From Candidatus Latescibacterota bacterium (lineage in GTDB: Bacteria; Latescibacterota; CBDEFO01): a stretch of DNA of 64,000 bases. A program made the position numbers and the translations under genes. Position 1 is the stretch's first letter. Every line of letters starts with the position of its first letter. Positions 3,460 through 63,342 of the stretch are shown here, in pieces. Below the pieces are notes generated by a model that worked only from the letters and a program-made list of their open reading frames with translations, had not been told where the DNA came from and made no database searches. The stretch covers positions 1,807,607 through 1,871,606 of the forward strand of contig CBDEFO010000008.1 of NCBI GenBank assembly GCA_965237525.1, in the 5' to 3' direction.

Positions 3460-4574
3460 TTACTGCATTTTTTTCTCCACGACTGCTCCTATAGCCCTTA
3501 TCTCCTTCATCAGCACCTCGAACTGATCTGGGAAGAGAGACTGAGCACCGTCGGACAGGGCGTGATCGGGATCGTGGTGAACCTCGATCATCAGGCCGTC
3601 TGCTCCAGCAGCTATCGAGGCCCTTGCCATAGGTACCACCTTGTTCCTTATTCCCGTTCCCTGACTGGGATCGGATATGATCGGAAGGTGGGAGAGCTTC
3701 TTGACCACAGGGATCGCGCTGATATCCAGTGTGTTTCTGGTATATTTTTCAAATGTCCTTATTCCACGCTCGCAGAGGATCACTTTGTGATTTCCTCCCG
3801 AACAGATGTACTCCGCGGACATGAGCCACTCCTCAATCGTCGCGCACATGCCCCGCTTTAAGAGGACAGGCTTGGAGGTCTTCCCCAACTCCCTCAGCAA
3901 AGTAAAGTTAGCCATGTTGCGGGTCCCCACTTGGAAGATGTTGGCGTATTCCTCAATTAGTGCGATCTGGCTTGCATCCATAACCTCAGTCACCACGGGT
4001 ATCGAGAAGCTATCTCCAGCTTCGCGTAGCAGCTTTAAGCCCTCCTCGCCTAGGCCCGGAAGCTGTAGGGAGATGTCCGCGGTTTGAACGCTCCACCTCT
4101 TAGGATGTTTGCGCCGGAGCTTTTGATCCTTTCGGATATGATCCTAAGCTGATCTCTGCTCTCCACAGAACACGGACCAGCCATTACGGCAATCTTGTCC
4201 CCTCCGATCTCCACGCCGTTCACGTCTATGATAGTGTCCTCCGATTTGAAGCCTCTGCTGACCAGCTTGTAGGGTTCACTTATCCTGTGAACCTCGTGCA
4301 CTCCCGGAAGAACCTCAAGGTCTCTTTCGTCCAAATCTGTATTTGTGCCTATAACCCCTATTACTGTCCTTTCTACTCCCCTAGAAATGTGAGCGTCAAA
4401 TCCCAACTCCGAGAGCTTTTCGACAAGATTCTGCACATGTTCCTCTAACGCCGTACCCTCCATAACAATAACCATTCGTTCCTTTGACCTCCTTGAAATT
4501 AGTGGACAGCAAACCCCGATTGAATCTATCCCCGATTGAACCTGTCGGGGACTTGGGGAGGGAGTCAGGGGCAC
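3460..4574 (-). pseudogene. aroF: DAHP synthase (KDO8PS-like type I-beta with N-terminal ferredoxin-like regulatory domain), interrupted by a single-base deletion frameshift near 4046-4052
   Basis: ORF 4050..4574 ends ...IAVMAGPCSVES...LRGGAFKPRTSPYSFRA*. The -1 frame immediately continues GLGEEGLKLLREAGDSFSIPVVTEVMDASQIAL..., which matches the expected SFQGLGEEGL, and runs into ORF 3460..3996. The actual sequence is ttccgggcctagg, where ttccAgggcctagg would restore the frame. Confidence 0.7.
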
Positions 4575-4619
4575 CGCCTCGTTTCCCTGTATGCTGTCTA
4601 CTGCTTGCCGTATGCTTGT

Positions 4620-4880
4620 TTAACTTCCCCTTTGTAGTTTCCTGGACTCCTCGATAATCCTTTCAAATATCCTCCTAATCGCCTCGTCGCAGAGAGGTCC
4701 GTTGTTCAATTTTTGAACCCCATTCAAAATTGCAGTCTCTCTCTCGGGAGAATGGACATCTTGTCCCTTTTCCCCCTTTATTCTCCCTATCTCTAAAGCG
4801 CACTTGGCCCGGCGATTTATAAGCTCTGCCAAACGGGCGTCTATAGAGTCTATCTCCTCACGCCAGTCTGATATATCCAT
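4620..4880 (-). CDS. Chorismate mutase, AroQ class
   Basis: MDISDWREEIDSIDARLAELINRRAKCALEIGRIKGEKG... is a typical AroQ helix-1 motif. The upstream ATG at 4925 is overlapped by a palindromic repeat element, so the internal ATG is the likely start. Confidence 0.75.
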   Translation of the reverse strand: MDISDWREEIDSIDARLAELINRRAKCALEIGRIKGEKGQDVHSPERETAILNGVQKLNNGPLCDEAIRRIFERIIEESRKLQRGS

Positions 4881-4968
4881 AGGCAACTCCCCTTGTAAGT
4901 AGACAGTAGTCCCCGATAGATTCAATCGGGGATAGACAGGGCACGTCCTCCCATCCCGTTTAAACTGC

Positions 4969-48049: not shown

Positions 48050-48670
48050 AAATCGTCCGCATCACCGATTTAGGTAATCTCATACCGCTCCCATGTCACC
48101 GTCAGCGGATTCATCCCCGTCCATCTATCCTACGACCCATGCGTCTTGGGGCTCACCCGCTAAGAGGCGAACAATGTTCAGGCTGTGACAGCCGCCTCCC
48201 GATATTTGGTTGGTCATATGATAATTGCTAGTGGTCAGATTCTTTCGGAATTTCCCATCATCTATCATTTCCCTTGCCTTCCACATGTAAGGAAGATCCT
48301 CACGTAGTCTTCCTAAGTCCAAACCTTTGCTGGTCAAAATTGTGTTGACTTATGCACGATTTTAAGGTAATCTCATACCGCTCCCATGTCACCGTCAGCG
48401 GATTCATCCCCGTCCATCTACCCTACGACCCATGCGTCTTGGGGCTCACCCGCTAAGAGGCGAACAATGTTCAGGCTGTGACAGCCGCCTCCCGATATTT
48501 GGTTGGTCATATGATAATTGCTAGTGGTCAGATTCTTTCCGAATTTCCCATCATCTATCATTTCCCTTGCCTTCCACATGTAAGGAAGATGCTCACACAG
48601 CTTCTCCAAGTCAGTACATTACTGGTCAAAATTATGTTGACTTGTGCACGATCTTAGGGTAATTTGAATC
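48050..48670 (+). repeat. Tandem duplication with an about 293-bp period (two full units and the start of a third), each preceded by a TTGACT...TAAGGTAAT promoter-like sequence
   Basis: Units start at about 48073, 48366 and 48658 (ggtaatctcataccgctcccatgtcaccgtcagcgg...). They are about 97% identical and contain several internal hairpins (ggctgtgacagcc, cttccacatgtaaggaag). The third copy runs into the leader of the gene at 48764. Confidence 0.8.
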
Positions 48671-48763: not shown

Positions 48764-49120
48764 ATGGGACGTTTCTTTCTGAGGATCCTCCTCGTTCTAC
48801 TTGCGGTGAACGCTGGTTGCTCAAAGGGTGAGGATGGACGAGCAGGAGAGCACATCGGCGAAGAGGAGCTTGCCGACATAATCGTGGACATGGCGAAAGC
48901 TAAAGACGAATATCGCTCAGATGAGGAGGCTCTCACAAAGAGAGAAGAAGCTCTCAAAAAGAGACTGGAGGCTATACTAAGGGAACGAAGTATTTCTTGG
49001 GCTGACATAGAAAAGATCATGGGGGATTTGAGGAAGGATCCTAAAAGATGGGAAAGGGTCCTGACAACTGTCCAGACAAAATTGCAGATGGAGTCTAAAA
49101 CAGTGAACAGCAAACAGTAG
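48764..49120 (+). CDS. Small secreted protein, probably a lipoprotein (hypothetical)
   Basis: It has a signal peptide (MGRFFLRILLVLLAVNAGCS) with a lipobox-like cysteine, then a charged helical region. The C-terminal codons VNSKQ* overlap a CAGTAGACAG repeat element. Confidence 0.5.
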   Translation: MGRFFLRILLVLLAVNAGCSKGEDGRAGEHIGEEELADIIVDMAKAKDEYRSDEEALTKREEALKKRLEAILRERSISWADIEKIMGDLRKDPKRWERVLTTVQTKLQMESKTVNSKQ

Positions 49121-49332
49121 ACAGTAGACGGCGAAAGGCAATTGCAAGTAGATAGCATACGGAAGAGGTGTCAGACAAACGTATTGGCCTCAAGATTACG
49201 TGCCATAGTTTTTCTCTTGCTCTAAGTAGAGGCATCGGATATATTAGTTATAAGGTTTGGCTGGGGACAAAGTTCAAAGATCGCGAGCTGAATTCCTTCG
49301 AGATAAGCTGCAAAATTAAGAAAGTTTTGAGA

Positions 49333-50086: not shown

Positions 50087-50791
50087 GTGCATGCCAAGTT
50101 CTCTGTGAAAGGAAGTGCAATCGTGGTTCTTATCTTGGTAGCTATTCTAACAATGGCAAGCTCTCAAGATACTTGGGGGCAACTGGCCGAGCCGTCGGCT
50201 AAGTTCACTATAGCTCGGTTGAAATACGAGGGCGGAGGGGATTGGTACAACGATCCTGATATAATTGGGAATCTCTTGAGATTCATCGGAGAAAATACGA
50301 ACATCAAAACGGTAAACGATGAGGCGAGGGTCGAGATAGGGGACGAAGAGTTCTTTTCCTATCCGTTCCTGTTTATGACAGGGCACGGGAATATACTTCT
50401 GACACAGGAGGAGATACCGAGGCTCAGGGAATATCTGGAAAGAGGGGGATTCTTATATGCGGACGATGACTACGGGATGGATGAGTCGTTTCGAAGGGAG
50501 ATAAAACGTGCACTCCCGGATAAGGAGCTTGTAGAGCTTCCGCCGTCATACGGACTCTTTGAATGTCACTTCAGCTTTCCGGGGGGACTGCCTAAAATAC
50601 ACGAACATGACGGAAAGCGTCCCCAGGCGTTCGGAATATTTCATGAAGACAGGTTAGTTGTTCTCTACACTTACGAGACGAACATCAGCGACGGATGGGC
50701 GTCTCCTGATGTACACAAAGATTCTGAAGCAAAGCGGAACGCGGCTTTGAAAATGGGAACTAATATAGTAGTATGGGCGCTCACACATTAA
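50087..50791 (+). CDS. DUF4159-domain secreted protein
   Basis: It has a signal peptide, then FTIARLKYEGGGDWYNDPD...FLFMTGHGNILLTQEEIPRLREYLERGGFLYADDDYG, which matches the DUF4159 pattern (family recalled from memory). Confidence 0.55.
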   Translation: MHAKFSVKGSAIVVLILVAILTMASSQDTWGQLAEPSAKFTIARLKYEGGGDWYNDPDIIGNLLRFIGENTNIKTVNDEARVEIGDEEFFSYPFLFMTGHGNILLTQEEIPRLREYLERGGFLYADDDYGMDESFRREIKRALPDKELVELPPSYGLFECHFSFPGGLPKIHEHDGKRPQAFGIFHEDRLVVLYTYETNISDGWASPDVHKDSEAKRNAALKMGTNIVVWALTH

Positions 50792-50847
50792 AGAATGTAG
50801 ATAGTAGCCAGGGGCACCGCCTCTCCTCCTTGAGATTGCTTTGGGCG

Positions 50848-51566
50848 AATGCCCCTCGCAATGACCGAAGGACATATTGCTTCGGGCGAGTGTCCCTTGC
50901 AATGACCGAAGGACATATTGCTTCGGGCGAGTGTCCCTTGCAATGACCGAAGGACATATTGCTTCGGGCGAGTGTCCCTTGCAATGACCGAAGGACATAT
51001 TGCTTCGGGCGAGTGTCCCTTGCAATGACCGAAGGACATATTGCTTCGGGCGAGTGTCCCTTGCAATGACCGAAGGACATATTGCTTCGGGCGAGTGTCC
51101 CTTGCAATGACCGAAGGACATATTGCTTCGGGCGAGTGTCCCTTGCAATGACCGAAGGACATATTGCTTCGGGCGAGTGTCCCTTGCAATGACCGAAGGA
51201 CATATTGCTTCGGGCGAGTGTCCCTTGCAATGACCGAAGGACATATTGCTTCGGGCGAGTGTCCCTTGCAATGACCGAAGGACATATTGCTTCGGGCGAG
51301 TGTCCCTTGCAATGACCGAAGGACATATTGCTTCGGGCGAGTGTCCCTTGCAATGACCGAAGGACATATTGCTTCGGGCGAGTGTCCCTTGCAATGACCG
51401 AAGGACATATTGCTTCGGGCGAGTGTCCCTTGCAATGACCGAAGGACATATTGCTTCGGGCTCCCTTGCAATGACCGAAGGACATATTGCTTCGGGCGAG
51501 TGTCCCTTGCAATGACCGAAGGACATATTGCTTCGGGCGAGTGTCCCTTGCAATGACCGAAGGACA
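50848..51566. repeat. 41-bp perfect tandem repeat array of about 17.5 units (unit GTGTCCCTTGCAATGACCGAAGGACATATTGCTTCGGGCGA). A second, 2.6-unit block lies at about 51648-51755, inside an about 190-bp segmental duplication.
   Basis: This is a direct head-to-tail repeat with no unique spacers. One unit has a 6-bp deletion, near 51440. Each unit contains the hairpin CCGAAG-N9-CTTCGG. It lies in the 1.08-kb intergenic space between the DUF4159 gene and the gene starting at 51873. Confidence 0.9.
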
Positions 51567-51872
51567 TAATGTCATTAGCGAGCGCCCCCGATTGAATCTA
51601 TCGGGGGGAAGCAATCTCGTAGACAGTGTAGTCAAGAAGGAGCAGAGTGTCCCTTGCAATGACCGAAGGACATATTGCTTCGGGCGAGTGTCCCTTGCAA
51701 TGACCGAAGGACATATTGCTTCGGGCGAGTGTCCCTTGCAATGACCGAAGGACATAATGTCATTAGCGAGCGCCCCCGATTGAATCTATCGGGGGGAAGC
51801 AATCTCGTAGACAGTGTAGTCAAGAAGGAGCAGAGGGAATCCATGTATGCTGTCTACTAATATAGGGGATCC

Positions 51873-54647
51873 ATGATGTCCTTCAAGCATCTTTTATTCT
51901 TTTTCCTTTCTCTTTTGCTTGCGGGCAATACGCAGGCACAGACTCAGCTCACTTTAGATCGCGACCGGCTTGAAGTCATAGAGGAACAGACGGAGTCACT
52001 TGCGAACCGCCTTCTGGAACTGTCCATAGCGACTCGCCAAAAAGATCTCGATCAGATCGCAGATTTCTTTGCAGATTCGTTATTAGCGATCCCCCTTCCG
52101 ACCGAACCCGAGGATCTTGTGCATCAAGTCAAGTGGATCTACAAGCACGGCTGGAAGATTCAAAAGGAGGCTTTGAGGTTGTCTTTGAGCGCTTTTTTGA
52201 AGGATTGGGGGGTGTTTTTGAACCACTTCTCTGAGATTGATGACGCTCGATTCAAGGTCAAGAAGGCTACGTTTGACGACAGGGGCGCTCAGGCCAACGT
52301 CTATTTCTATCTGGTCGGCAGGGACGCTGAGGGCCTGAGAGAGTGGGCAAGGGGATATGCCTCTGTACATGCTCAGGCTTCGGAGGAGGGCAACTGGAAA
52401 ATCAGCCAGTTCGTACTCGAGAGTCTTGAATCCCTGGTGTCCACCATTGAGCTCTTTTCCGAAGTGGGTGGTCCGGCAGGTGTTGCGGCCTTCTTCCCGG
52501 TCTATGGATCGAGCCAAAACCGGGGTTTCGTCTGGCACGGGGCAGCGGCAGCGGACGTGGACCTGGATGGGTTGATGGACATCTTTGCGACCGGTATCTT
52601 CGAGAACTATCTCTATTTAAACGAGGGCAACGGGCGCTTCCGCGACGCTTCTGCTCAAACGCAGACCAAGATTTTGCCCAAAGCCACGACCCCGCTCTTT
52701 TTGGATTATGACAACGATGGGGATCAGGACCTGTTCCTCTCCTCGCCACAAAATCAGATGTTGCTTGAAAACCGGCTCATACCGGAAGGGAAGCTCGAAT
52801 TTTTCGACGTGTCGTTGCAGTCGGGGATCGGGCTTGTTCCGGCAATAGGGTTCAGCGCCATCGCCGGTGACGTCAATGGGGACGGTCGGCCGGACATCTA
52901 CGTTTCGTCTTACAACAGGTACGGTCAGGTGATGCCGAATTCGTGGCATCGCGCCACCAACGGGACTCCAAATCTGTTGTTCATAAATAAGGGCAACGGC
53001 GAATTTGTGGAGTCCGCAAAGGAATGGGGTGTAGATGACGGCCGTTGGAGTTACGCCGCTGGATTTGTGGATATAGACGAAGACGGGGATATGGACATCT
53101 ACGTTGCCAACGATTTCGGCGAAAATGGTCTCTACTTAAACCACGGTGATCGCTTTGTCGATGTGGCGGTTTCTTGGGGAGTGCTGGACCCAGGAAACGG
53201 CATGGGGGTCTCTTTCGGTGACTACGACAACGATGGGGATCAGGACCTCCACGTGACCAATATGTCCTCGACGGCGGGAAATCGGATTCTCGGGAGACTC
53301 TTTCCCAGTGTGAGCCGGGAGACTGGCGTCCTGGTTAAGCTGGCTTCGGGAAACAGCCTCTATGAAAATCTGGGGAACGGCCAGTTCAAGGACGTTACAT
53401 CGGCTGTTGGGGGCTTTTCATCGGGCTGGGCGTGGGGCGGTGGATTCATCGACTTCGACAACGACGGCTGGGAGGACATCTACACCCCCAACGGGTTCAT
53501 TTCGGGAAAGTCAATGAAGGATACGTGAAGTCTCTTCTGGCGCCACGTGGTGGCGTCTAAGGCAGGAGTCGAGCAGGCGGGCAGCAACACTTTCACAGAG
53601 CGGCAAAACAAATTGTTCGGACAGGGGTTTTCGTTCAGCGGCTTCGAGAGAGATGCACTCTACCTCAACCTGGGCAGCAAGAAATACTTGAATATCTCCG
53701 GTGTCTCAGGTATAGATTCGATTACTGATGGAAGGGGAGCTGTCTTCGCCGATTTCGACAACGATGGCGACACAGACATCTTTTTGACCACTATCCAGGG
53801 AGAGGCTCACCTGCTCTTTAGAAATAATCTTTCCGAAGATGACTCCTTCATTCGTGTCACCTTGGAGGGCGTAGAGAGCGGGAAAGACGCCTTCGGAACC
53901 CTGGTGAGAGTCAAGACCTCCGCCGGCGTCCTCACCAAAGTCAAATCGGGAGGGGCCGGATACCTCTCCCAGAGCGACCCGCGACTTACCTTCGGTCTCG
54001 GCTCAGATGCGAAAGCCGAGTGGGTCGAGGTTGTGTGGGGTTCGGGCCTGGTGCAGAAATTTGAGAATATCCCACAAGGCTCTTCCATGAAGATTACCGA
54101 AGGAGATGAGCAGGTGCGATGGATTGAGGAGAAACGATTCCAGCTGCCCGAGCCTATCAGGCCACAGGAGACCCGCCTGATGTCCTTGAGGATCAAAAAG
54201 GGGGGACAGTTTCCGAATCTTGCGCTGTCTTTATTGGACGGCGAAAGGACTTCCCTGCAAAGTTCTTCGATACTTTTGGGTGATCCCATACCGGGACGAA
54301 AATACCTTGTGAATCTGTGGGCAACGTGGTGCCTGCCATGCGCCAAAGAGATGCCGGAGTTGCAAAAACTCTATGCTCGCAACATCGATAATCTTGAGAT
54401 TATGGGTATCAGCCTGGACCACGAACCGGCACAAGACAAGGTCAAGAGCTTTTTGAGCGATCACGGTATCCAATACCCGATCTATTTAAGCGATGAGAAC
54501 ATAATCGAGCAAATCTATGCCACAGACGAGGTCTTCATTCCCCTATCTTTTCTGCTTGACGAGAGCGGCAAAGTAATGGAGATCTTCTCCGGATGGTCTG
54601 AGGAGGTCAGGGAGAGATTGATTGAACAAGTAGACAGCAAACAGTAG
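51873..54647 (+). CDS. CRTAC1/ASPIC-UnbV-family FG-GAP repeat protein with a C-terminal TlpA-like thioredoxin domain; the reading frame is interrupted by a single in-frame TGA at 53526-53528
   Basis: It has a signal peptide and repeated D-x-D-x-DG motifs (DVDLDGLMDIF, LDYDNDGDQDLF, GDVNGDGRPDIYV, VDIDEDGDMDIYV, GDYDNDGDQDLHV, IDFDNDGWEDIYT). After the TGA, the same frame continues SLFWRHVVASKAG...GGAGYLSQSDPRLTFGLG (ASPIC/UnbV signature) ...WATWCLPCAKEMPEL (CxxC). Confidence 0.6.
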
Positions 54648-54737
54648 ACAGGGGCACCCATCTCCCCTCCCTATGTGCTGTTTATTGAGGTAGGTAGGTA
54701 TACCCTGTATCCTGTCTACTGTTTTGAGGTGTCGGCA

Positions 54738-57700
54738 ATGTCAGATTCGGCGGAAAAGACATATCGGGAGCTTTTGGAGAGGCTCAGGAGGTTAAGAATC
54801 AGGGAGATGAGTCTCGGGGCCTCCTTCGGGACAGCTTTGTGTCTTCTGGTTGGCCTTTGCATCGGGTCGCTCTGGATGGCCGTAGAGATCTTGTTCTATC
54901 TGCATCCAGTGGCAAAGATGCTTATGCTGTCTCTTACTGCCGCGACTGCGGGCTCTGCCTTTGTGTACTTCTCCATCTTCCACGCCTTCAGGAAGAAGTC
55001 GCCGCAGGACATGGCTCTGAAGGTGGAATCTGTGTTCCCGGAGTTCAAGCAGACCTTGATAGGTGCACTTCAACTCTGGGACAAAAAGATGGAGAATCCA
55101 GAGGGCTATTCACTGGATATGATCGACCGGACTGTGATAAAGGCGGGAGACTTATCAAAGGATGTGGAATTTGAGAGCATCGCAAGTGCCGCAAAGATAA
55201 GGAAGACAGTTGTGATCCTATCTGCGCTCATGGGTTTGGTCGCCCTCTTTGTATTTCTGTTTCCGTCTCAGTTTAAGGGAGCGCTGTACAGGACTTTTCA
55301 CATCACCACCGCCTTTGCAAAGCCTCCAGAGACGTTTCTGCACGTGGAACCCGGAGATATGGAGGTTGTGAAGGGTGCGGACGCCTCTATACTCATACAG
55401 TTGGAAGGGAAACTTCCCGACCAGATCAGCGTGCTCTCCAAAGAGCCCCTGGCAAAGAGATGGAAAGAGGCAGACGTAGAGATTTCGATGGCGGATAGCT
55501 TCTTCCAGTTGCAGCTGAAGCTCGGCTTTGTCTATGCTTTTAAGGAAGTAAGCCGGACTATCGACTACTATGTCAAAGCCGGCGACGGAAAGAGTCATAG
55601 TTTTCGAATCAATGTGATCGACCGTCCGATGGTCAACAAGATCACGGCGCAATACGAGTATCCCGCATATACGGGTCTTCCCGCCAAAGTGGCAGAGGGT
55701 GGGGATCTATCGGCACTTATCGGGACTGAAGTTGAGCTTTCTATCTGGGCGAGCAAACCCTTAAGGGGGGCCTTCCTGATCTTGGGAGATGGAACAAAGA
55801 TCAAGGCTACCCTGGAAAACAGGACCGCGAGACTGGGCTTCGAGATAAAAAAGGACGACACTTATCACATTCGGTTGTTGGATTTGGAGGGTCTTGAAAA
55901 CTCTGAGCCCATAGAATACAGTATATACGCCCTGAAGGACGAATCGCCCGTAGTCAGAGTCGCCTATCCAGGGAGCGATACTGACCTTGGAGATAATATG
56001 GTACAGCCGCTTACAATAGAGGCGTCCGACGACTTCGGGATATCGAAGATGAATATCATCTGGAGACTGAACGAGGATCCGAGGCTAAGACGTCGGGAAG
56101 TACCTCTGCTCTCTGGAGGAAGGAAAGAGGTTAAAGAAGACTATCTGTGGGATCTATCGGATATGAATCTGCTGCCTGAAGATAGGATATACTACCGCGT
56201 TGAGGTCTATGACAACGATGAAGTCTCAGGGCCCAAAAGAGCCCAAAGCGAAGAGTTTGTCGTGAGACTTCCCTCTGTCCATGAGATATTGGAGGAGGTC
56301 GAAAGGACGCAGGAAGAGCAGACAATGCAGATGGAGGGGATAGCAAAGGAAAGCCGTGCGATCAAGGAGAAGTTAGAGGAGATAAAACGTGAGCTTTTGA
56401 AGGGTGTGCAGTTAGATTGGGAGGAAAGGAAGGATATCGAGTCTCTTGTGAATAGACAGATGAGAATGGCTGAGGAGATGAACAAGCTTTCCGAGAAGAT
56501 GGACGAAGTGACGGAGCAATTAGAAAAGAGCGGGTTATCTGCGGCGGAGACTCTGCAGAAGATGGCTCAAATAAGGAAGCTTATGTCGGATGTAGCGACC
56601 CCTGAACTAATAGAGGCTATGGAGAATTTGAGGGAGTCTCTGAAAGACCTGGATCAACGGCAGATAGAGCAGGCCATGAAGGATTTTTCGATTACACAGG
56701 AGGAATTTGGCAGGAGGCTCGACCGCACTATCGCTATCTTGAAGAGACTTCAGGTGGAGCAGAAGATAGATGCCGCTATCAAGGCTGCAGAGGAGCTGAC
56801 AGAAAGACAGGAAGGGATAAACGAGCAGATCAAAGATAACAAAAAAGAAGAGTTGGCAAAGGAGGAGGAAGCGATATCCCAAGATACGCAAAAGCTCCAG
56901 AAGGACATAGAAGATCTGGCGGATGCCATAAGGGAAATCTCCGAGCAAAGTCAGGTCGCAAGTTTGGCTGATTCGATTTCTAAAGGGATGGCAAGGCAGA
57001 AAATACCCTCTCATATGCTCCAGATGGCAGAGTCTTTAAGGTCGAGTGATGGCAAGTCGGCTGAATTGCAGGGAGAAAGGATAGTTCAAAACCTGGAGGA
57101 TCTATCCTTTGGCCTAAGAAAAATGCAGGAGTCCTTTCTGAAAAGCCAGAAAGCCGAGCTTTTCAGCGAGATCAGGAAGTCCATGCGGGACCTTCTGTAT
57201 CTATCTTATCGTCAGGAGGACGTGATTGCAGACGGCAAAGATAGCAGGGATTACGCCAAAGATACAAAGATACAGCGAGAGCTTGCAGAGGTTCAGCAGT
57301 CCCTCTTTTCGGGGACTTCCAAAATCGCTGACAGGCTCTTTGAAACATCTCAAAAGACGTTCTTCATCACCCCTTCTATAGGAAGAGCTTTAGGAGAATC
57401 TCTGGAAAGGATGAAAGAGGCCACCTCCTTGCTTGAAAGAGGAAACGGAAGATTGGCGTCGAGCCATCAAAGGAAGGCCATGTCCTCCTTAAATGAGACG
57501 GTTAATCTCCTCAGAGGGGCTATGGGGGACATATCGTCGTCTGAATCGGGAACGGGGTTTCAGGAGATGTTAGAGCAGATGAAGGCGTTGTCGCAACAAC
57601 AGCAGGGCGTAAACCAGGGGACAGAGAGCCTGTTCGGTGGGGGACAGATGGGACTTTCTCCAGAGCAGCAAGCGGCCAACAATGCTACCATGATGGCTCA

Positions 57701-58130
57701 ACTTCTGGCGCAGCAGGAGGATATAAGAAGGGCAATCGAGGGACTTCAAAGGGCGATGGAGCAGAAAAGGGGTCTCCTGGGAAGACTCGACAAAATAGGC
57801 ACGGAGATCGAGGAGGTCACCAGAGACCTTGCAAGCGGAAGGATAAGCAGAAGGACCATCGAAAGGCAAAGAGACATACTCTCCAGGATGCTGGACGCCC
57901 AAAGGTCGATATACGAGAGGAGCTACAGCAGGAAGAGACAATCTAAAGAAGGAAAGGACACAGATTATCAGGGCTCTGGCAGTCTGCCGGAGGATCTGGG
58001 ACAGAGGAGAAATCTTTTGAGAGAATATCTCCTCAAGGCCTTAAAGGAGGGCTATTCTCAAGAGTATATCAATTTAATACGAAAGTATTTTGAGTCACTA
58101 TCTATAGATCAAGTAGACAGTATACAGTAG
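54738..58130 (+). CDS. Large membrane-anchored coiled-coil protein (about 1130 aa; hypothetical, possibly DUF4175-like)
   Basis: It has two N-terminal TM helices, a beta-rich middle region and a long Glu/Lys/Gln-rich coiled-coil C-terminal half. The terminal codons QVDSIQ* overlap a CAGTAGACAG repeat element. Confidence 0.5.
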   Translation: MSDSAEKTYRELLERLRRLRIREMSLGASFGTALCLLVGLCIGSLWMAVEILFYLHPVAKMLMLSLTAATAGSAFVYFSIFHAFRKKSPQDMALKVESVFPEFKQTLIGALQLWDKKMENPEGYSLDMIDRTVIKAGDLSKDVEFESIASAAKIRKTVVILSALMGLVALFVFLFPSQFKGALYRTFHITTAFAKPPETFLHVEPGDMEVVKGADASILIQLEGKLPDQISVLSKEPLAKRWKEADVEISMADSFFQLQLKLGFVYAFKEVSRTIDYYVKAGDGKSHSFRINVIDRPMVNKITAQYEYPAYTGLPAKVAEGGDLSALIGTEVELSIWASKPLRGAFLILGDGTKIKATLENRTARLGFEIKKDDTYHIRLLDLEGLENSEPIEYSIYALKDESPVVRVAYPGSDTDLGDNMVQPLTIEASDDFGISKMNIIWRLNEDPRLRRREVPLLSGGRKEVKEDYLWDLSDMNLLPEDRIYYRVEVYDNDEVSGPKRAQSEEFVVRLPSVHEILEEVERTQEEQTMQMEGIAKESRAIKEKLEEIKRELLKGVQLDWEERKDIESLVNRQMRMAEEMNKLSEKMDEVTEQLEKSGLSAAETLQKMAQIRKLMSDVATPELIEAMENLRESLKDLDQRQIEQAMKDFSITQEEFGRRLDRTIAILKRLQVEQKIDAAIKAAEELTERQEGINEQIKDNKKEELAKEEEAISQDTQKLQKDIEDLADAIREISEQSQVASLADSISKGMARQKIPSHMLQMAESLRSSDGKSAELQGERIVQNLEDLSFGLRKMQESFLKSQKAELFSEIRKSMRDLLYLSYRQEDVIADGKDSRDYAKDTKIQRELAEVQQSLFSGTSKIADRLFETSQKTFFITPSIGRALGESLERMKEATSLLERGNGRLASSHQRKAMSSLNETVNLLRGAMGDISSSESGTGFQEMLEQMKALSQQQQGVNQGTESLFGGGQMGLSPEQQAANNATMMAQLLAQQEDIRRAIEGLQRAMEQKRGLLGRLDKIGTEIEEVTRDLASGRISRRTIERQRDILSRMLDAQRSIYERSYSRKRQSKEGKDTDYQGSGSLPEDLGQRRNLLREYLLKALKEGYSQEYINLIRKYFESLSIDQVDSIQ

Positions 58131-58380
58131 ACAGGGCAACCCTGCCCTTCCCTGTTTACGAGATTGCTTGGCTTCGACCCTTAGTCATTGCGAGGGGCCA
58201 AACCCCGACCCCGTCAGGAGTTGCGAAGCAGAACTAACTCAAAGGTTGGGAGGTGGTGCCCCCTATCCACTACCTACTTAAAACTGATGTTTCCGGCGTT
58301 TTGACGTTTTTCCAAGGTGTATGTCCTTTTTTTCTCTCCCTATACTTTTTATCTCAAAAATTGCAAAGGAAAGTGGAAAA

Positions 58381-60156
<1,776 letters not shown>

Positions 60157-60253
60157 TAGATAAGTAGATAGTAGGTAGGGGTATATCCTCTTCTCCCTGT
60201 CTGCTCTCTATTTGTTTGGGACAAAAGATTTTGTTTAGGACAAAAAATATAGT

Positions 60254-61600
60254 GTGGGAAAGAGGGTATACGCCTTGAAAAGAAAATCAGAAACACCAGT
60301 ATCAAGTAGGCAGTATCAACTACGTAGGGGGTACCTCCTGCCTGTCTACTGTCTACTGTCTACTGTCTACTTGTTTATGGCTTCAGAGGTCTGGGCTCAA
60401 AAGATGCTGATATACATGGATCTGAATCAGACCGATCATCTCAAGGCGTATGGTGTCGCGTACCGGGCTTTAGAGCAGGGGATAGATGTGGAGTGGCTGT
60501 TGAACTACCGGGGAGGATCATTTATGATAGACAGTGTATATGAGTTGATAGCAGAGGCGAGGATAAGAGGGGTCTCCTTTTCTATGATAGGCGGAGCCGA
60601 AGCTGCCCTTGTATACGCTCAGATCGAAAGGGAGAACATGGACGTAGTGCACCTTACAAAGACTCCCAGAATAGCGGTCTATACTCCCCCCAACACTCAG
60701 CCCTGGGACGACGCTGTGACCCTGGCTCTCACCTACGCACAGATACCGTACGATAGGGTCTGGGACGCGGAGGTGCTTGCTGGAGAGCTTGAGAAATACG
60801 ACTGGCTGCACCTTCACCACGAGGATTTTACAGGACAATATGGCAAGTTCTACAGCACGTACGGGAATCAGCCGTGGTACAGACAACAGCAGATCCAATA
60901 CGAGGCTGTGGCCCGCCGTCTGGGATTTAGCAAGGTCTCCGAGGAAAAAAAGACTGTGGCAGGGGCGATCAAAAATTACGTCATAAATGGAGGTTTCCTC
61001 TTTGCAATGTGCTCGGCGACAGATACGTTTGACATAGCTTTAGCCGCTCAAAATGCCGACATCGCCGTGGCTGTGTTCGACGGCGACCCGGCCGATCCCA
61101 ACGCCCAGGAGAAGCTCGACTACTCCAGGACGGTGGCGTTTGAGAACTTCAAATTAGAGATGAATCCCTTAGTATACGAGTTCTCGGATATAGACACCAC
61201 GCCCAAAAGGATGTCACAGATACGGGGCGCCGAGGCAGATTATTTCACTCTGTTTGAGTTTTCTGCCAAATACGATCCTGTCCCCACTATGCTGACTCAA
61301 AATCACACACCTGTTGTGGACGGCTTTCTGGGACAGACTACCGCGTTTAGAAAGTCCCTCGTAAAGGATTCTGTCGTGATATTGGGGGAATCTGCAGCAA
61401 CAGATGAGGCTAAATATATACACGGAAATGTGGGGAAAGGGACAGTTACTTTCTACGGGGGGCATGATCCGGAGGACTATCAGCACCTGGTCTATGATCC
61501 GCCCACTCAGTTGTCCTTGCACAAGAATTCTCCCGGATACCGGTTGATCTTAAACAACGTACTCTTCCCGGCAGCCAAGAAGAAGGAGAGGAAGACTTAA
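60254..61600 (+). CDS. Hypothetical secreted protein (start uncertain; a (CTGTCTA)x4 tract lies in the N-terminal coding region)
   Basis: 448-aa ORF. The N-terminal region LLPVYCLLSTVYLFMASEVWA-QK is signal-peptide-like. No family recognised. Confidence 0.45.
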   Translation: MGKRVYALKRKSETPVSSRQYQLRRGYLLPVYCLLSTVYLFMASEVWAQKMLIYMDLNQTDHLKAYGVAYRALEQGIDVEWLLNYRGGSFMIDSVYELIAEARIRGVSFSMIGGAEAALVYAQIERENMDVVHLTKTPRIAVYTPPNTQPWDDAVTLALTYAQIPYDRVWDAEVLAGELEKYDWLHLHHEDFTGQYGKFYSTYGNQPWYRQQQIQYEAVARRLGFSKVSEEKKTVAGAIKNYVINGGFLFAMCSATDTFDIALAAQNADIAVAVFDGDPADPNAQEKLDYSRTVAFENFKLEMNPLVYEFSDIDTTPKRMSQIRGAEADYFTLFEFSAKYDPVPTMLTQNHTPVVDGFLGQTTAFRKSLVKDSVVILGESAATDEAKYIHGNVGKGTVTFYGGHDPEDYQHLVYDPPTQLSLHKNSPGYRLILNNVLFPAAKKKERKT

Positions 61601-61703: not shown

Positions 61704-61826
61704 ATGGCAAACAAGGGCAATGTGGTGAATGCTGTTGTTAGCGAAGCTGGAATCTCAAAAAAAGAGGCCGGGGCAGTAGTTAATGCTTTAATCAATACTA
61801 TTACTGATGCCTTAAAAGCCTTGTGA
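61704..61826 (+). pseudogene. 5' fragment of an HU-family gene disrupted by IS insertion
   Basis: There is a GAAGGTGAAAGG ribosome-binding site. The fragment encodes MANKGNVVNAVVSEAGISKKEAGAVVNALINTITDAL and then runs into the IS inverted repeat. The reading frame resumes at 63343. Confidence 0.75.
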
Positions 61827-63338
61827 AATAGTTATGTCCTAAGGCAGCGTCTGAAGCGCCGATTATGGGTCAAAGAGTAGCATATCGTATCGTTTTGCTG
61901 TGGAATAAGCAAAGTAGTCTTATCAGAGTTCTGGTCAGCAAGGAACAGGAGCTGTTTGAAGAACAGGATGCACTGTCTTTGACAGACAGGGCACACATAG
62001 ACGCTTTCCCCCTTCTTATGAAAGATACAAGCCTCTTGAGATTCTGTACTGTTGCAACAAGATTCAACTGTTCATTCAGTGAGGCTGGTCCTCTATAACG
62101 GGCTCGTCCCATACCGTGTTGTTGCCTGGCTTCAGCAAAGATATGTTCACTGCGTTTACGGAGTCTCCCGGGAGAGTTTGTAGTCAGCTGTTAATGAGAT
62201 AGACCGTGCATGATTTCTGGCTTTCGCCTCTCGCACTTTTCTATCCCGTTCGGCCTGAATATGTGCTGAATTTGTCTTGTTTTTCCATGTAGGAATCGGT
62301 TCAATCCTCTCATCGGCTCGCAGAGGAATATGGGGTATGATTCCCCGGTCAAGTACATCAGCGATAAAATTACCAGAACCGTAACCGGTATCGGCACTAA
62401 GTGTCTGAATGTCTTTGGGCATGGTGTATGTTTCAAGGTCATCTACCATCTTAAGGGCACTTTCGGGCTCTGCTGTCCCTGTCGCCTGCGTGCCCTGAGT
62501 CTCAAGGATTACTCTGCTTTTTGTGTCGATCAGATCATGGCCCATAAACGAGAGAAAAGCCCCTTTGCCCTTCGATTTGCTGTATAAGCGCGCGTCGGGG
62601 TCTGTAGTCGAACGGTGTGTTTGGTTCGTCCACTTTTCACCATGAAAGTCTTTATCCTGAGGATGCCCGGACCTACCCTTTGTCTTATCACCTTCAAAAC
62701 CGATTCCCTTGAGATAATCATCAAGAGAAACAGGGGGTTCTATCGGCTCAATACTTTTCACTGAAGCATCAGCTTGTATCTGAGTGCCGTCGACACTAAG
62801 GTGTTTACCGCTCACAAGACCGACATCTATGCAACACTGGACTACCTGACGCATTATCCGTTCAAACAACCCACTGGATGCCCACTTGTGATTGCGAAGC
62901 TTGTTGATCGTGCTCCTATCCGGAACCGCATCATCAAATGTCTGATGACAAAACAACCGATATGCCGCATGCATCCCCACTTCCTGACAGAGCCGATTCT
63001 CACTCAAATTATACAGATAGCCAATAAGGATCATTCGAACAACTAATTCAGGATCAATACCGGGTCTGCCATTGTCAGGGCAATAACAATCTGATACAAC
63101 GTCTCGTACAAATGAAAAATCAACTGCCTCATCAATCTGACGAAGGATATGATCCTCGGGAACTAAATCCTCCATCTGAAAATAGTGAAACATCGGATTT
63201 GTCTGTTCCTGCTTTTGTGGGGTCATTGCTTTTCCTCCATGTATAATATTATCAATAACATAATATAATACATCGGAGCTGCTTTATCAATGCTTGTTCT
63301 ATACTACTTTCTGAATCTAAGGGTTTTTCACAAGGCTT
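61816..63338 (-). mobile_element. IS5-family insertion sequence, copy 2 (1523 bp) with target duplication TTAA (61812-61815 and 63339-63342); its transposase is frameshifted
   Basis: It has the same inverted repeats as copy 1. An extra C in a CCC run near 62168-62172 splits the transposase into ORFs 62156..63226 and 61870..62112. Confidence 0.85.
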
Positions 63339-63342
63339 TTAA

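What the first reader, a model, noticed from the sequence alone, without database searches (positions are those of the whole stretch)
50795..51860. An about 18-unit perfect 41-bp tandem array, plus a 2.6-unit satellite block, in a 1.1-kb intergenic region
The unit GTGTCCCTTGCAATGACCGAAGGACATATTGCTTCGGGCGA is repeated head-to-tail with near-perfect identity. There is one 35-bp unit. A 190-bp segment containing a CCCCGAT-N7-ATCGGGG hairpin is duplicated. 

Each unit can form a CCGAAG-N9-CTTCGG hairpin. The array is bracketed by the inverted arms of the GTAGACAG intergenic element, with gtagatagtagccaggggcacc at about 50800 and ccatgtatgctgtctactaa at about 51840. 

There are no spacers, so it is not a CRISPR array. 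Such high identity implies recent expansion or active homogenisation. 

The array could be a copy-number-variable regulatory spacer between the DUF4159 gene and the CRTAC1-like gene, an array of protein-binding sites, or a structured RNA repeat.
Basis: seen in the sequence. Interest (0 to 1): 0.6.

Follow-up and report, generated by a model that had tools for sequence, protein, structure and literature searches.

The report
Variable 41-bp repeat inside REP-like element
This is a real tandem repeat whose copy number differs (0, 4, 17 or 21 units) between closely related uncultured Latescibacterota bacteria; it grew out of one of the genome's many hairpin-forming intergenic repeats, which is a known kind of bacterial repeat instability with no sign of a dedicated function.

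Summary
Window 50835-51568 carries 18 head-to-tail units of 41 bp. Fourteen consecutive units are identical, and one unit is 36 bp (not 35). A perfect duplication with a 188-bp period adds about 2.6 more units.

The same site, between the DUF4159 gene and an FG-GAP gene, was recovered from three other public assemblies:
- a 99.6%-identical strain has 4 units, two of them variants;
- a 99.9%-identical strain has 17 units;
- a ~96%-identical sister genome (Candidatus Latescibacterota, OZ252149.1) has none, only a 54-nt palindrome.

The unit is not a free-standing motif. It is the 5' part of a multi-hairpin intergenic palindrome: a closing stem, a small hairpin, and the 5' arm and loop of a second hairpin. 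The last unit plus the tail rebuilds the whole element, which is predicted to fold as a four-way junction. Paralogues with the same architecture, and a 21-nt hairpin with at least 45 exact copies, are scattered through the sister genome in both orientations.

Best reading: a lineage-specific minisatellite (VNTR) created by slippage inside a REP/BIME-like repeat. The closest analogues are E. coli BIME-2 arrays, Pseudomonas REP arrays and mycobacterial MIRUs. It is not a CRISPR array, an Rfam RNA, a coding repeat or plasmid iterons. A regulatory effect is possible but unsupported.

The parts
50087..50791 (+). Upstream gene for a DUF4159 protein. Its stop codon lies 5 nt before the element.
   Evidence: Pfam PF13709, E=1e-62. 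An identical protein is on record in two other assemblies.
50797..50831 (.). Left outer arm of the intergenic element: GTAGATAGTAGCCAGGGGCACCGCCTCTCCTCCTT. It starts with heptamer-type GTAGAYA repeats.
   Evidence: The same arm type (GTAGACAGGGGCACC...) occurs at window 54630, 58113 and 4566, and in many sister-genome loci.
50832..50841 (+). 5' strand of the closing stem P1 (GAGATTGCTT). It is complementary to AAGCAATCTC at 51609-51618 and 51797-51806.
   Evidence: Inverted repeats I6 and I7, 10 nt, 100% complementary. The same stem closes the array-free element in L003.
50835..50875 (+). First, ancestral-type unit: ATTGCTTTGGGCGAATGCCCCTCGCAATGACCGAAGGACAT. It comprises part of the P1 5' strand, hairpin C (GGGC-GAAT-GCCC), and the 5' arm and loop of hairpin A.
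   Evidence: Its first 21 nt align with the L003 palindrome. GCCCCTCGCAATGAC recurs at window 58184-58198.
50876..51449 (+). Fourteen consecutive identical 41-bp units: ATTGCTTCGGGCGAGTGTCCCTTGCAATGACCGAAGGACAT.
51450..51485 (+). Short 36-bp unit (5-nt deletion), directly at the left edge of the duplication with a 188-bp period.
51486..51567 (+). Two further exact units. The last one, together with the tail, forms a complete element.
51568..51588 (+). Tail segment X' (AATGTCATTAGCGAGCGCCCC). It holds the 3' arm of hairpin A (GTCATTAGCGAG, 51571-51582). It ends in GCGAGCGCCCC, an imperfect direct repeat of GCGAATGCCCC in unit 1; in the reconstructed one-unit element the two lie 41 nt apart.
   Evidence: The direct-repeat reasoning comes from comparing.
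51585..51608 (.). Hairpin B (CCCCCGATTGAATCTATCGGGGGG), one copy of a dispersed 21-nt palindromic repeat.
   Evidence: eight sites in the window, 0 expected by chance; at least 45 exact copies in OZ252149.1.
51609..51626 (+). 3' strand of P1 (AAGCAATCTC) followed by GTAGACAG.
51462..51835 (+). Perfect duplication with a 188-bp period: about 2.6 units, tail, hairpin B, P1 3' strand, GTAGACAG and linker. It is present only in the window's allele. The second copy holds units at 51674-51755, hairpin B at 51773-51796 and the P1 3' strand at 51797-51806.
   Evidence: TRF: period 188, 2.0 copies, 100% match. The duplication is absent from L001, L002 and L003.
51823..51857 (.). Right outer arm: AGAAGGAGCAGAGGGAATCCATGTATGCTGTCTAC. 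It is an imperfect inverted copy of the left arm and ends 15 nt before the start codon.
51873..53528 (+). Downstream gene for an FG-GAP repeat protein. It is followed by ASPIC/UnbV-redoxin (53547-54647) and DUF4175 (54675-58130) genes on the same strand.
   Evidence: Pfam. Gene order in other assemblies.

Best explanation
The array is a lineage-specific, hypervariable minisatellite (VNTR). It arose by tandem amplification of a 41-bp piece of a REP/BIME-like intergenic palindrome in an uncultured Latescibacterota bacterium.

The parent element sits between the DUF4159 and FG-GAP genes. It consists of a closing stem P1 (GAGATTGCTT / AAGCAATCTC) around three hairpins (C, A and B), all inside longer inverted arms capped by GTAGACA / TGTCTAC heptamers. 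The repeat unit is the P1 5' strand, hairpin C, and the 5' arm and loop of hairpin A.

In the one-unit form, two imperfect 11-nt direct repeats (GCGAATGCCCC and GCGAGCGCCCC) lie exactly 41 nt apart. I infer that slipped-strand mispairing between them produced the first duplication. The same misalignment in the opposite sense would produce the 41-nt-shorter allele seen in the sister genome.

Once two identical units existed, replication slippage or unequal sister-strand exchange expanded the array to 4, 17 and 18 units. The units' ability to pair with each other as single strands would help this. A later microhomology-type duplication of about 188 bp added about 2.6 more units.

The array probably has no selected function of its own. 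Its likely side effect is to lengthen the untranslated spacer between two co-oriented genes from about 160 to 1,081 nt, which may weaken coupling of the downstream genes to upstream transcription.

Shown: the existence, structure, polymorphism and origin of the array. Inferred: the slippage mechanism and any expression effect.
For: - The array exists and is far beyond chance.
- Four alleles were found at the same site:
  - the window has 18+3 units;
  - L002 has 17 units, with flanks 99.9% identical;
  - L001 has 4 units, two of which carry two substitutions, with flanks 99.6% identical;
  - L003 (OZ252149.1) has 0 units, with flanks ~96% identical.
- In L003 the site is a plain 54-nt palindrome, GAGATTGCTTCGGGCGAATGCCCCCGATCGAATCTATCGGGCGGAAGCAATCTC. 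The first 21 nt of the repeat unit align to its left arm.
- The one-unit reconstruction folds into a four-way junction at -47.4 kcal/mol (z = -6.4). The L003 allele gives z = -4.0, and a paralogue in L047 with the same architecture gives z = -6.2. A single repeat unit gives only z about -1.
- Six paralogues share the P1-C-A-B architecture.
- The module ATTGCTTC-[small hairpin]-TCGCAATGAC recurs about 17-20 times in about 0.45 Mb of the sister genome, with different small hairpins inserted.
- Hairpin B occurs at eight sites in the window (0 expected) and in at least 45 exact copies in OZ252149.1.
- The modules lie in both orientations relative to neighbouring genes: 5 sense, 4 antisense, 2 convergent and 5 divergent. 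This indicates a DNA-level repeat.
- The 20-mer specific to the unit is absent from 185,579 species-representative genomes and from the JGI metagenome contigs. No other family-derived array was found in the sampled loci. The array is therefore young and local.
- Two units folded as single-stranded DNA pair across the unit boundary (z = -3.1).
- Precedent from the literature: the number of tandem BIME copies at a locus varies between E. coli strains (PMC3333891), and tandem REP/REPIN arrays occur in P. fluorescens SBW25 (PMC3116915).
Against: - No read-level data were available. The exact copy numbers, the 36-bp unit and the 188-bp duplication rest on consensus assemblies. These show homopolymer-type errors (for example, split genes in L002 and L003).
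- The direction of change at the first step is not resolved: hairpin A may have been gained in the window lineage or lost in L003.
- Slippage is inferred from the anatomy. An enzyme-mediated route (strand transfer by a REP-associated transposase) would give the same product.
- The absence of a function is not demonstrated. The array lies inside a co-oriented gene cluster where its length could matter.
- GAAGGACAT in every unit is complementary to the start-codon region of the downstream gene.
Confidence: 0.78

Rival explanations
1. Copy-number-dependent regulator (a contingency or rheostat locus). Array length would tune expression of the downstream FG-GAP / ASPIC-redoxin / DUF4175 genes, either through polarity across a long untranslated spacer or through pairing of GAAGGACAU in each unit with the AUGUCCUUC start region.
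For: - The array lies between co-oriented genes, with no convincing sigma-70-type promoter on the + strand between the array and the ATG.
- Copy number differs between near-identical strains.
- Each unit has 9 nt complementary to the start-codon region, and the last unit has 12 of 13.
Against: - There are no expression data.
- Five of the nine complementary bases belong to the family consensus (GACCGAAGG also occurs in L047), so the match is plausibly chance.
- The promoter scan covers only sigma-70-type sites, and the counts equal those in shuffled sequence.
- The sister genome functions with no units at all.
Confidence: 0.12
2. The nature of the array is the same, but the amplification mechanism differs. 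A REP-associated HUH/Y1 transposase (RAYT/TnpA-REP-like) would cut and rejoin the hairpin element and build tandem copies by strand transfer, rather than replication slippage.
For: - TnpA-REP strand transfer in vitro can assemble tandem BIME copies resembling in vivo amplification (PMC3333891).
- The parent family is hairpin-rich, highly dispersed and even found inside ORFs, which suggests active mobilisation.
- The outer arms begin with GTAG and end with CTAC, like REP heads.
Against: - No such transposase gene was seen. It could not be searched genome-wide, and a crude HUH-motif screen of about 0.5 Mb found none.
- GTAG lies next to hairpin B in only 7 of 57 copies.
- The amplified unit contains neither hairpin B nor a GTAG head.
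- The 11-nt direct repeats 41 nt apart are sufficient for slippage.
Confidence: 0.15
3. A functional array of protein-binding sites or structured RNA modules, for example sites for a nucleoid protein or an RNA sponge.
For: - Each unit contains several short inverted repeats: ATTGC/GCAAT, CCGAAG/CTTCGG and GTCCCTT/AAGGAC.
- REP/BIME elements in E. coli bind IHF, gyrase and Pol I (PMC3333891).
Against: - Folding of a single unit is indistinguishable from shuffled sequence.
- There is no Rfam match even at E<=1.
- The parent modules show no strand bias.
- The array is absent from the sister genome and is only 4 units long in a 99.6% identical strain.
- The unit occurs nowhere else.
Confidence: 0.05
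4. Assembly artefact: a spurious expansion or collapse of a short repeat by a long-read assembler.
For: - The assemblies carry indel errors (a 42-bp unit in the 4x-coverage contig L002, split genes).
- The 36-bp unit abuts the edge of the 188-bp duplication.
Against: - Three independent assemblies place an array at exactly the same site.
- Two of them agree on 17-18 units.
- The 4-unit allele has its own variant units, which cannot come from collapsing the long allele.
- A 0.7-1 kb array is easily spanned by long reads.
Confidence: 0.03
5. A repeat protein encoded on the minus strand. All three minus-strand frames are open through the array, and a gene caller annotated a 250-aa ORF there in L002.
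For: - Open frames of 259-324 codons exist on the minus strand.
- A 250-aa gene was called in L002.
- Pfam gives summed scores to GxGYxYP_N.
Against: - The period of 41 is not a multiple of 3.
- The ORF does not exist in the 0- and 4-unit alleles.
- A 41-nt sequence free of stops on one strand is expected about 14% of the time.
- The Pfam scores come from adding up identical 19-aa fragments, with no single stretch passing.
Confidence: 0.01

Closest known systems
BIME-2 / atypical BIME tandem arrays of E. coli (REP-BIME system)
   Same: - Both are intergenic.
- Both are built from short imperfect palindromes combined in a mosaic with linkers.
- Tandem copies at one locus are nearly identical.
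- The number of tandem copies at a locus differs between strains (PMC3333891).
- Here the alleles are 0, 4, 17 and 21 units, and the family is a mosaic of modules.
   Different: - A BIME-2 unit is a REP plus an inverted REP with linkers. Here the unit is a 41-bp internal fragment (half of the closing stem, one small hairpin and half of another hairpin). All copies are in direct orientation, with no GTAG-headed REP inside.
- The sequences are unrelated and the phylum is different.
- A cognate RAYT has not been shown.
Tandem REP/REPIN clusters of Pseudomonas fluorescens SBW25
   Same: Both are highly ordered tandem arrays of nearly identical repeat units derived from a dispersed hairpin family. 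In SBW25 they reach 12 REPs or more than 700 bp (PMC3116915).
   Different: - The SBW25 arrays contain whole REPs or REPINs plus flanks, and some lie next to RAYT genes.
- Here only part of an element is amplified, and no RAYT is known.
MIRU-type minisatellites (VNTRs) of Mycobacterium tuberculosis
   Same: - Both are 40-100-bp head-to-tail repeats.
- Both lie in intergenic spacers between co-oriented genes.
- Copy number varies between strains (PMC3635867). General properties of MIRUs are from my own knowledge.
   Different: - MIRUs occur at about 40 loci per genome, and some carry small ORFs overlapping the ends of neighbouring genes.
- This 41-bp unit occurs at a single locus.
- Its length is not a multiple of 3, and the + strand has a stop in every frame.
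CRISPR arrays
   Same: Both consist of direct repeats of a partly palindromic sequence of about 40 bp in an intergenic region.
   Different: - There are no spacers; units abut.
- None of the eight neighbouring ORFs scanned against Pfam is a cas gene.
- The repeat derives from a dispersed palindrome family.
Rickettsia palindromic elements (RPEs) and MITEs. This comparison applies to the parent family, not to the array.
   Same: - Hairpin B is found in frame inside long ORFs. One example is a 7-residue excess in a MeaB-like GTPase exactly at the hairpin.
- A ~290-bp element with terminal inverted repeats carries the same modules. MITE review: PMC10969869.
   Different: - RPEs are 100-150 bp; hairpin B is 21 nt.
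- Target-site duplications and mobility were not examined.

Membership tests
Bacterial minisatellite / VNTR | Head-to-tail direct repeats with a unit of about 10-100 bp | tested here: met
   Period 41, 18.0 copies, 97% matches. Fourteen consecutive exact units.
Bacterial minisatellite / VNTR | Copy number differs between closely related strains at the same locus | tested here: met
   There are 0, 4, 17 and 18+3 units in four assemblies, with flanks 96-99.9% identical.
MIRU-like interspersed minisatellite | The same unit is present at many loci in the genome | tested here: not met
   - The unit occurs only at this locus in the window.
- Its specific 20-mer is absent from the GTDB representative genomes, which include the sister genome, and from JGI metagenomes.
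- No family-derived array was found in about 0.45 Mb of sister-genome loci.
REP / BIME (parent element) | A short (20-40 nt) imperfect palindrome present in high copy number, mostly extragenic | tested here: met
   - Hairpin B (21-24 nt) occurs at eight sites in 64 kb, with 0 expected.
- 41 of 53 exact copies lie outside long open frames.
REP / BIME (parent element) | Mosaic organisation: palindromes in alternating orientation combined with conserved linker motifs, sometimes repeated in tandem | tested here: met
   Composite P1-C-A-B elements and variants, with modules swapped or inverted. The tandem amplification is at this locus.
REP / BIME (parent element) | A conserved GTAG tetranucleotide 5' of the foot of the palindrome | tested here: inconclusive
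   - The outer arms start with GTAG(ACA) and end with (TGT)CTAC.
- GTAG or CTAC lies within 9 nt of hairpin B in only 7 of 57 copies, against a background of about 2% per side.
REP / REPIN-RAYT system | A cognate REP-associated tyrosine (Y1/HUH) transposase gene in the genome, flanked by the repeats | not testable with these tools
A crude HUH...Y motif screen of ORFs in about 0.5 Mb of held sequence found none. That screen is not a valid test for a single-copy gene.
CRISPR array | Repeats separated by unique spacers of similar length | tested here: not met
   Units are contiguous, with a spacing of exactly 41 bp.
Known structured RNA family (Rfam 15) | A covariance-model match | tested here: not met
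   No match at gathering thresholds in the whole window. No match at E<=1 in 50700-51950.
Plasmid-type iteron array / replication origin | Short direct repeats next to a replication initiator gene, with similarity to plasmid or phage DNA | tested here: not met
   The neighbours are DUF4159, FG-GAP, RraA-like and PhoH genes. There are no blastn matches in 72,556 plasmids or 50,697 phages.
Protein-coding tandem repeat | A period that is a multiple of 3, and an ORF conserved in relatives | tested here: not met
   The period is 41. The ORF is absent in the 0- and 4-unit alleles. The Pfam scores are artefacts of summing over repeats.

The most novel reading that the evidence does not exclude
The array may be a visible by-product of an undescribed, currently active REP/BIME-like system in Latescibacterota. 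In this reading:
- multi-hairpin elements capped by variable (GTAGACA)n / (TGTCTAC)n heptamer runs fill the spacers of co-oriented gene clusters, from stop codon to ribosome-binding site;
- their 21-nt core hairpin also invades protein-coding genes in frame and is shared word-for-word with unrelated phyla;
- a hairpin-specific HUH-type enzyme both spreads the elements and builds tandem arrays;
- array length then acts as a heritable, rapidly mutable dial on the coupling of the downstream FG-GAP/ASPIC/DUF4175 genes to upstream transcription.
Probability: 0.12. Interest if true: 0.6.

Novelty: new member of a known kind. Interest (0 to 1): 0.35.

Why it matters
The array itself is an ordinary phenomenon: tandem amplification and strain-to-strain copy-number change of a REP/BIME-type repeat. 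Here it is documented in an uncultured phylum where such repeats have not, to my knowledge, been described.

It has three practical uses:
- It is a clean natural series (0, 4, 17 and 21 units) that shows how a minisatellite is born from two short direct repeats inside a palindromic element.
- It is a strain marker for these Latescibacterota populations.
- It warns that gene callers annotate spurious ORFs across it, such as the 250-aa ORF in L002.

The parent family is the more interesting lead. Its features are heptamer-capped inverted arms, a four-way-junction core, a 21-nt hairpin inserted in frame into genes, and the same 21-mer in distant phyla.

Tried and rejected
- **CRISPR:** rejected, because there are no spacers.
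- **Known RNA family:** no Rfam match at gathering thresholds or at E<=1.
- **Structured RNA unit:** the unit folded in two registers and on both strands gives z between -0.9 and -1.3.
- **Footprint of the IS element in the window (61813-63342):** its 17-bp terminal repeats (TTAAAAGCCTTGTGAAA) are unrelated to the unit.
- **Other copies of the unit:** none elsewhere in the window, in the GTDB representative genomes or in the JGI metagenomes.
- **More alleles:** exact look-ups of three further neighbouring proteins either failed or returned the same contigs.
- **Plasmid or phage origin:** no hits.
- **Minus-strand repeat protein:** rejected.
- **Sigma-70 promoters and intrinsic terminators:** counts equal those in shuffled sequence. 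None lies on the + strand between the array and the ATG.
- **Sigma-54-type spacing in the unit:** checked by eye; it is off by 2 nt.
- **GTAG head next to hairpin B:** present in only 7 of 57 copies.
- **RAYT search by an HUH...Y regular expression in held sequence:** nothing found, but this is not a valid genome-wide test.
- **Covariation in the four-way junction:** six paralogues keep the structure, but with almost no compensatory changes (2 of 27 pairs). The alignment cannot separate RNA-level from DNA-level selection.
- **Complementarity of GAAGGACAT to the downstream start codon:** noted, but judged probably chance because most of it is family consensus.
Full report
**1. The observation**

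The sequence at 50795-51860 is as described.
- Tandem Repeats Finder reports a 41-bp period from 50835 to 51568 with 18.0 copies, 97% matches and score 1405. It reports a second block at 51645-51756 with 2.7 copies, and a 188-bp period at 51462-51835 with 100% identity.
- The 41-mer matches 19 times at <=3 mismatches; no shuffle of the window gave any match.
- In the register starting ATTGC, the layout is as follows:
  - a degenerate first unit (50835-50875);
  - 14 consecutive exact units (50876-51449);
  - one 36-bp unit (51450-51485);
  - two exact units (51486-51567);
  - a tail;
  - a partial unit and two exact units in the duplicated block (51674-51755).
- The array fills a 1,081-bp gap between a DUF4159 gene (50087-50791) and an FG-GAP repeat gene (51873-53528). 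ASPIC/UnbV-redoxin and DUF4175 genes follow on the same strand.

**2. Is the array real, and is its length variable?**

The DUF4159 protein is on record with an identical sequence in other public long-read assemblies. A version at least 90% identical lies on a 4.54-Mb chromosome. Reading the same intergenic site in each gave four alleles.

| Locus | Source | Flank identity to window | Units |
|---|---|---|---|
| window | (source not given) | - | 18 + 3 |
| L002 | ERZ26167216, 32-kb contig at 4x | 99.9% | 17, no 188-bp duplication |
| L001 | ERZ25067264, 1.95-Mb contig | 99.6% | 4, two carrying the same two substitutions |
| L003 | OZ252149.1, Candidatus Latescibacterota MAG | ~96% | 0 |

The 4-unit allele has its own variant units, so it cannot be a collapsed version of the long one. 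Two independent assemblies agree on 17-18 units. The array is therefore real, young and hypervariable.

**3. Where the unit comes from**

In L003 the site holds a 54-nt imperfect palindrome, GAGATTGCTTCGGGCGAATGCCCCCGATCGAATCTATCGGGCGGAAGCAATCTC.
- The first 21 nt of the repeat unit (ATTGCTTCGGGCGAGTGTCCC) align to the left arm of this palindrome.
- The array-bearing alleles have the structure (X Y)n X', followed by the hairpin CCCCCGATTGAATCTATCGGGGGG and the closing strand AAGCAATCTC:
  - X is the 21-nt arm;
  - Y is T(C/T)GCAATGACCGAAGGACAT;
  - X' is AATGTCATTAGCGAGCGCCCC.
- Reduced to one unit, the element folds into a four-way junction (-47.4 kcal/mol, z = -6.4). It has a closing stem P1, hairpin C (GGGC-GAAT-GCCC), hairpin A (CTCGCAATGAC...GTCATTAGCGAG) and hairpin B.
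- The L003 allele lacks only hairpin A (z = -4.0).
- A single repeat unit folds no better than shuffled sequence, with z about -1 in either register and on either strand.

**4. The parent element belongs to a dispersed family**

- Hairpin B occurs at eight sites in the window, against 0 expected.
- Many copies sit in composites with the same P1-C-A-B order, for example in L047, L054, L050, L061 and L026. Six of these share one consensus structure with little covariation, as expected for young paralogues.
- The core of the repeat unit, ATTGCTTC-[small hairpin]-TCGCAATGAC, recurs about 17-20 times in the sampled 0.45 Mb. The inserted hairpins differ: GGGGTTTGGCCCC, GGGGCGAAAGCCCC, GGTGGATTTTATCCACC, GCCTTCGGC, or hairpin B itself.
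- Part of Y (GACCGAAGG) is also family sequence (L047).
- The whole elements lie inside longer inverted arms, (GTAGACA)n-GGGGCACCGCCTCTCCTCC ... GGAGGAGAGGCGGTGCCCC-(TGTCTAC)n. These arms bracket several other intergenic spacers of the window (54629-54720, 58112-58470, 60152-60371, about 4566-4940).
- Relative to crude ORF calls, the module lies 5 times sense, 4 times antisense, 2 times in convergent spacers and 5 times in divergent spacers. This argues for a DNA-level repeat rather than a strand-specific RNA.

**5. Mechanism**

In the one-unit form, two imperfect 11-nt direct repeats lie exactly 41 nt apart: GCGAATGCCCC at the end of X and GCGAGCGCCCC at the end of X'.
- Misalignment between them during replication gives either a 41-nt deletion, which matches the L003 allele, or a 41-nt duplication. 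This is my inference.
- Two perfect units then make further slippage or unequal exchange easy.
- Two units folded as single-stranded DNA pair across the unit boundary (z = -3.1), which would stabilise slipped intermediates.
- The ~188-bp duplication joins ...GCAGAG to TGTCCC at a GAG microhomology. It is unique to the window's allele.
- An enzymatic alternative cannot be excluded. E. coli TnpA-REP can assemble tandem BIMEs by strand transfer (PMC3333891). No such gene could be searched for genome-wide.

**6. Function**

Nothing found here indicates a dedicated function.
- The unit occurs nowhere else: not in the rest of the window, not in 185,579 representative genomes and not in JGI metagenomes.
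- It has no Rfam match and no plasmid or phage similarity.
- It is dispensable in the sister genome.
- The minus-strand ORFs are artefacts. The period is not a multiple of 3, the ORFs are absent from the short alleles, and the Pfam scores are sums of identical 19-residue fragments with no single stretch passing.
- The most likely consequence is passive. The untranslated spacer between two co-oriented genes grows from about 160 to 1,081 nt, which could reduce read-through into the FG-GAP/ASPIC/DUF4175 genes.
- No sigma-70-type promoter was found on the + strand between the array and the ATG, but the scan is weak evidence because its counts equal those in shuffled sequence.
- The 9-nt complementarity of each unit to the downstream start region is probably chance, because five of the nine bases are family consensus.

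**7. Comparison with known systems**

- The closest analogues are E. coli BIME-2 and atypical BIME arrays. They have nearly identical tandem copies at a locus, and the copy number varies between strains (PMC3333891).
- The next closest are the ordered tandem REP/REPIN arrays of P. fluorescens SBW25 (PMC3116915), and MIRU minisatellites in operon spacers (PMC3635867).
- Differences from these:
  - the amplified unit is an internal fragment of an element, not a REP/iREP pair;
  - all copies are direct;
  - the unit is at a single locus;
  - a cognate transposase is unknown.
- The REP hallmark of a GTAG head is present on the outer arms, but it is next to hairpin B in only 7 of 57 copies.
- I file the array as a VNTR derived from a REP/BIME-like family. 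Membership of the family in the RAYT-associated REP class is left open.

**8. Verdict**

The RNA and binding-site ideas have no support. The array is a new member of a known kind, so its interest is modest. The parent repeat family is the more promising follow-up.

Noticed in passing
L035 6685-6705; L042 3224-3244; L031 3368-3388; L038 2680-2700; L023 866-886; L052 4570-4590 (all in OZ252149.1): The 21-nt hairpin B (CCCCGATTGAATCTATCGGGG) lies inside long open reading frames, in different frames and orientations (read as PRLNLSG, SPI[DE]SIG or PDRFNRG). Twelve of 53 exact copies lie at least 60 nt inside a frame of 250 codons or more. In a MeaB/ArgK-like GTPase, the alignment to PDB 8dpb_A shows a 7-residue excess exactly at the hairpin. 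This looks like in-frame invasion of genes by a tiny palindrome, reminiscent of Rickettsia RPEs.
   Followed up: partly
L005, L006, L009, L012, L015, L032, L033, L037, L041, L046, L057, L058: The same exact 21-mer occurs in unrelated MAGs: 'Deltaproteobacteria' GWF2_42_12, RIFCSPHIGHO2_02_FULL_43_33, NC_groundwater bins, a Thermodesulfobacteriota bin and one Nanoarchaeia contig. Some sit next to similar CCCGA...TCGGG hairpins. About 0.3 chance matches were expected in the whole collection (my own estimate from collection size and 21-mer length). The sharing across phyla is unexplained.
   Followed up: no
window 54629-54651, 54712-54720, 58112-58134, 58440-58470, 60152-60178, 60342-60371, 49116-49129, 4594-4602, 4898-4906: Heptamer runs occur in variable number: (GTAGACA)n directly after, or overlapping, stop codons, and (TGTCTAC)n about 15-25 nt before start codons. 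They form the ends of long inverted arms (GTAGACAGGGGCACC...GGTGCCCCTGTCTAC) that bracket whole intergenic spacers in a co-oriented gene cluster. They could pair to loop out each spacer. Their role is unknown.
   Followed up: partly
L013 ~1520-1810, L014 ~3980-4240, L044 1-220, L050 (minus strand) and L059 (minus strand): A ~260-290-bp MITE-like element with terminal inverted repeats (TAACCCGATTAATTCA...TGAATTATTCGGGTTA) is present in at least five copies at 90-93% identity. It carries the same modules: the hairpin A arm, hairpin B, both P1 strands, and ATTGCTTCGCCTTCGGCTCGCAATGACACCGAAGG.
   Followed up: partly
window 61813-63342: An IS element (DDE_Tnp_1 transposase on the minus strand, 17-bp terminal inverted repeats TTAAAAGCCTTGTGAAA, TTAA at both ends) interrupts an HU-like DNA-binding protein gene (start about 61706, continuation after 63342). 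A 98.4% identical copy lies at a different site in L001 (751-2276).
   Followed up: partly
window ~48060-48340 and ~48360-48640: Two direct copies of a ~280-300-bp segment (...ggtaatctcataccgctcccatgtcaccgtcagcggattcatccccgtcc...) lie in the 1-kb non-coding region between the PhoH gene and the next ORFs. They were not analysed.
   Followed up: no
window 51559-51571 versus 51872-51884: GAAGGACAT in every unit (GAAGGACATAATG in the last unit, 12 of 13) is complementary to CATGATGTCCTTC, which spans the start codon of the downstream FG-GAP gene. The match is probably chance, because GACCGAAGG is family consensus.
   Followed up: partly
window 53528-53547; L002 and L003 gene calls: The FG-GAP (551 aa) and ASPIC/UnbV-redoxin (366 aa) ORFs are separated by only 18 nt and together resemble one CRTAC1-like protein. 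In L002 and L003 the FG-GAP and DUF4175 genes are called in two pieces, apparently at homopolymer runs (GGGGG versus GGGGGG). This suggests long-read consensus errors rather than real frameshifts.
   Followed up: no
L008 4314-4416; L017 2041-2253; L020 7226-7318: The sister genome has other near-perfect short-period tandem arrays unrelated to this family: 25 bp x 4.1, 18 bp x 11.8 and 15 bp x 6.2.
   Followed up: no
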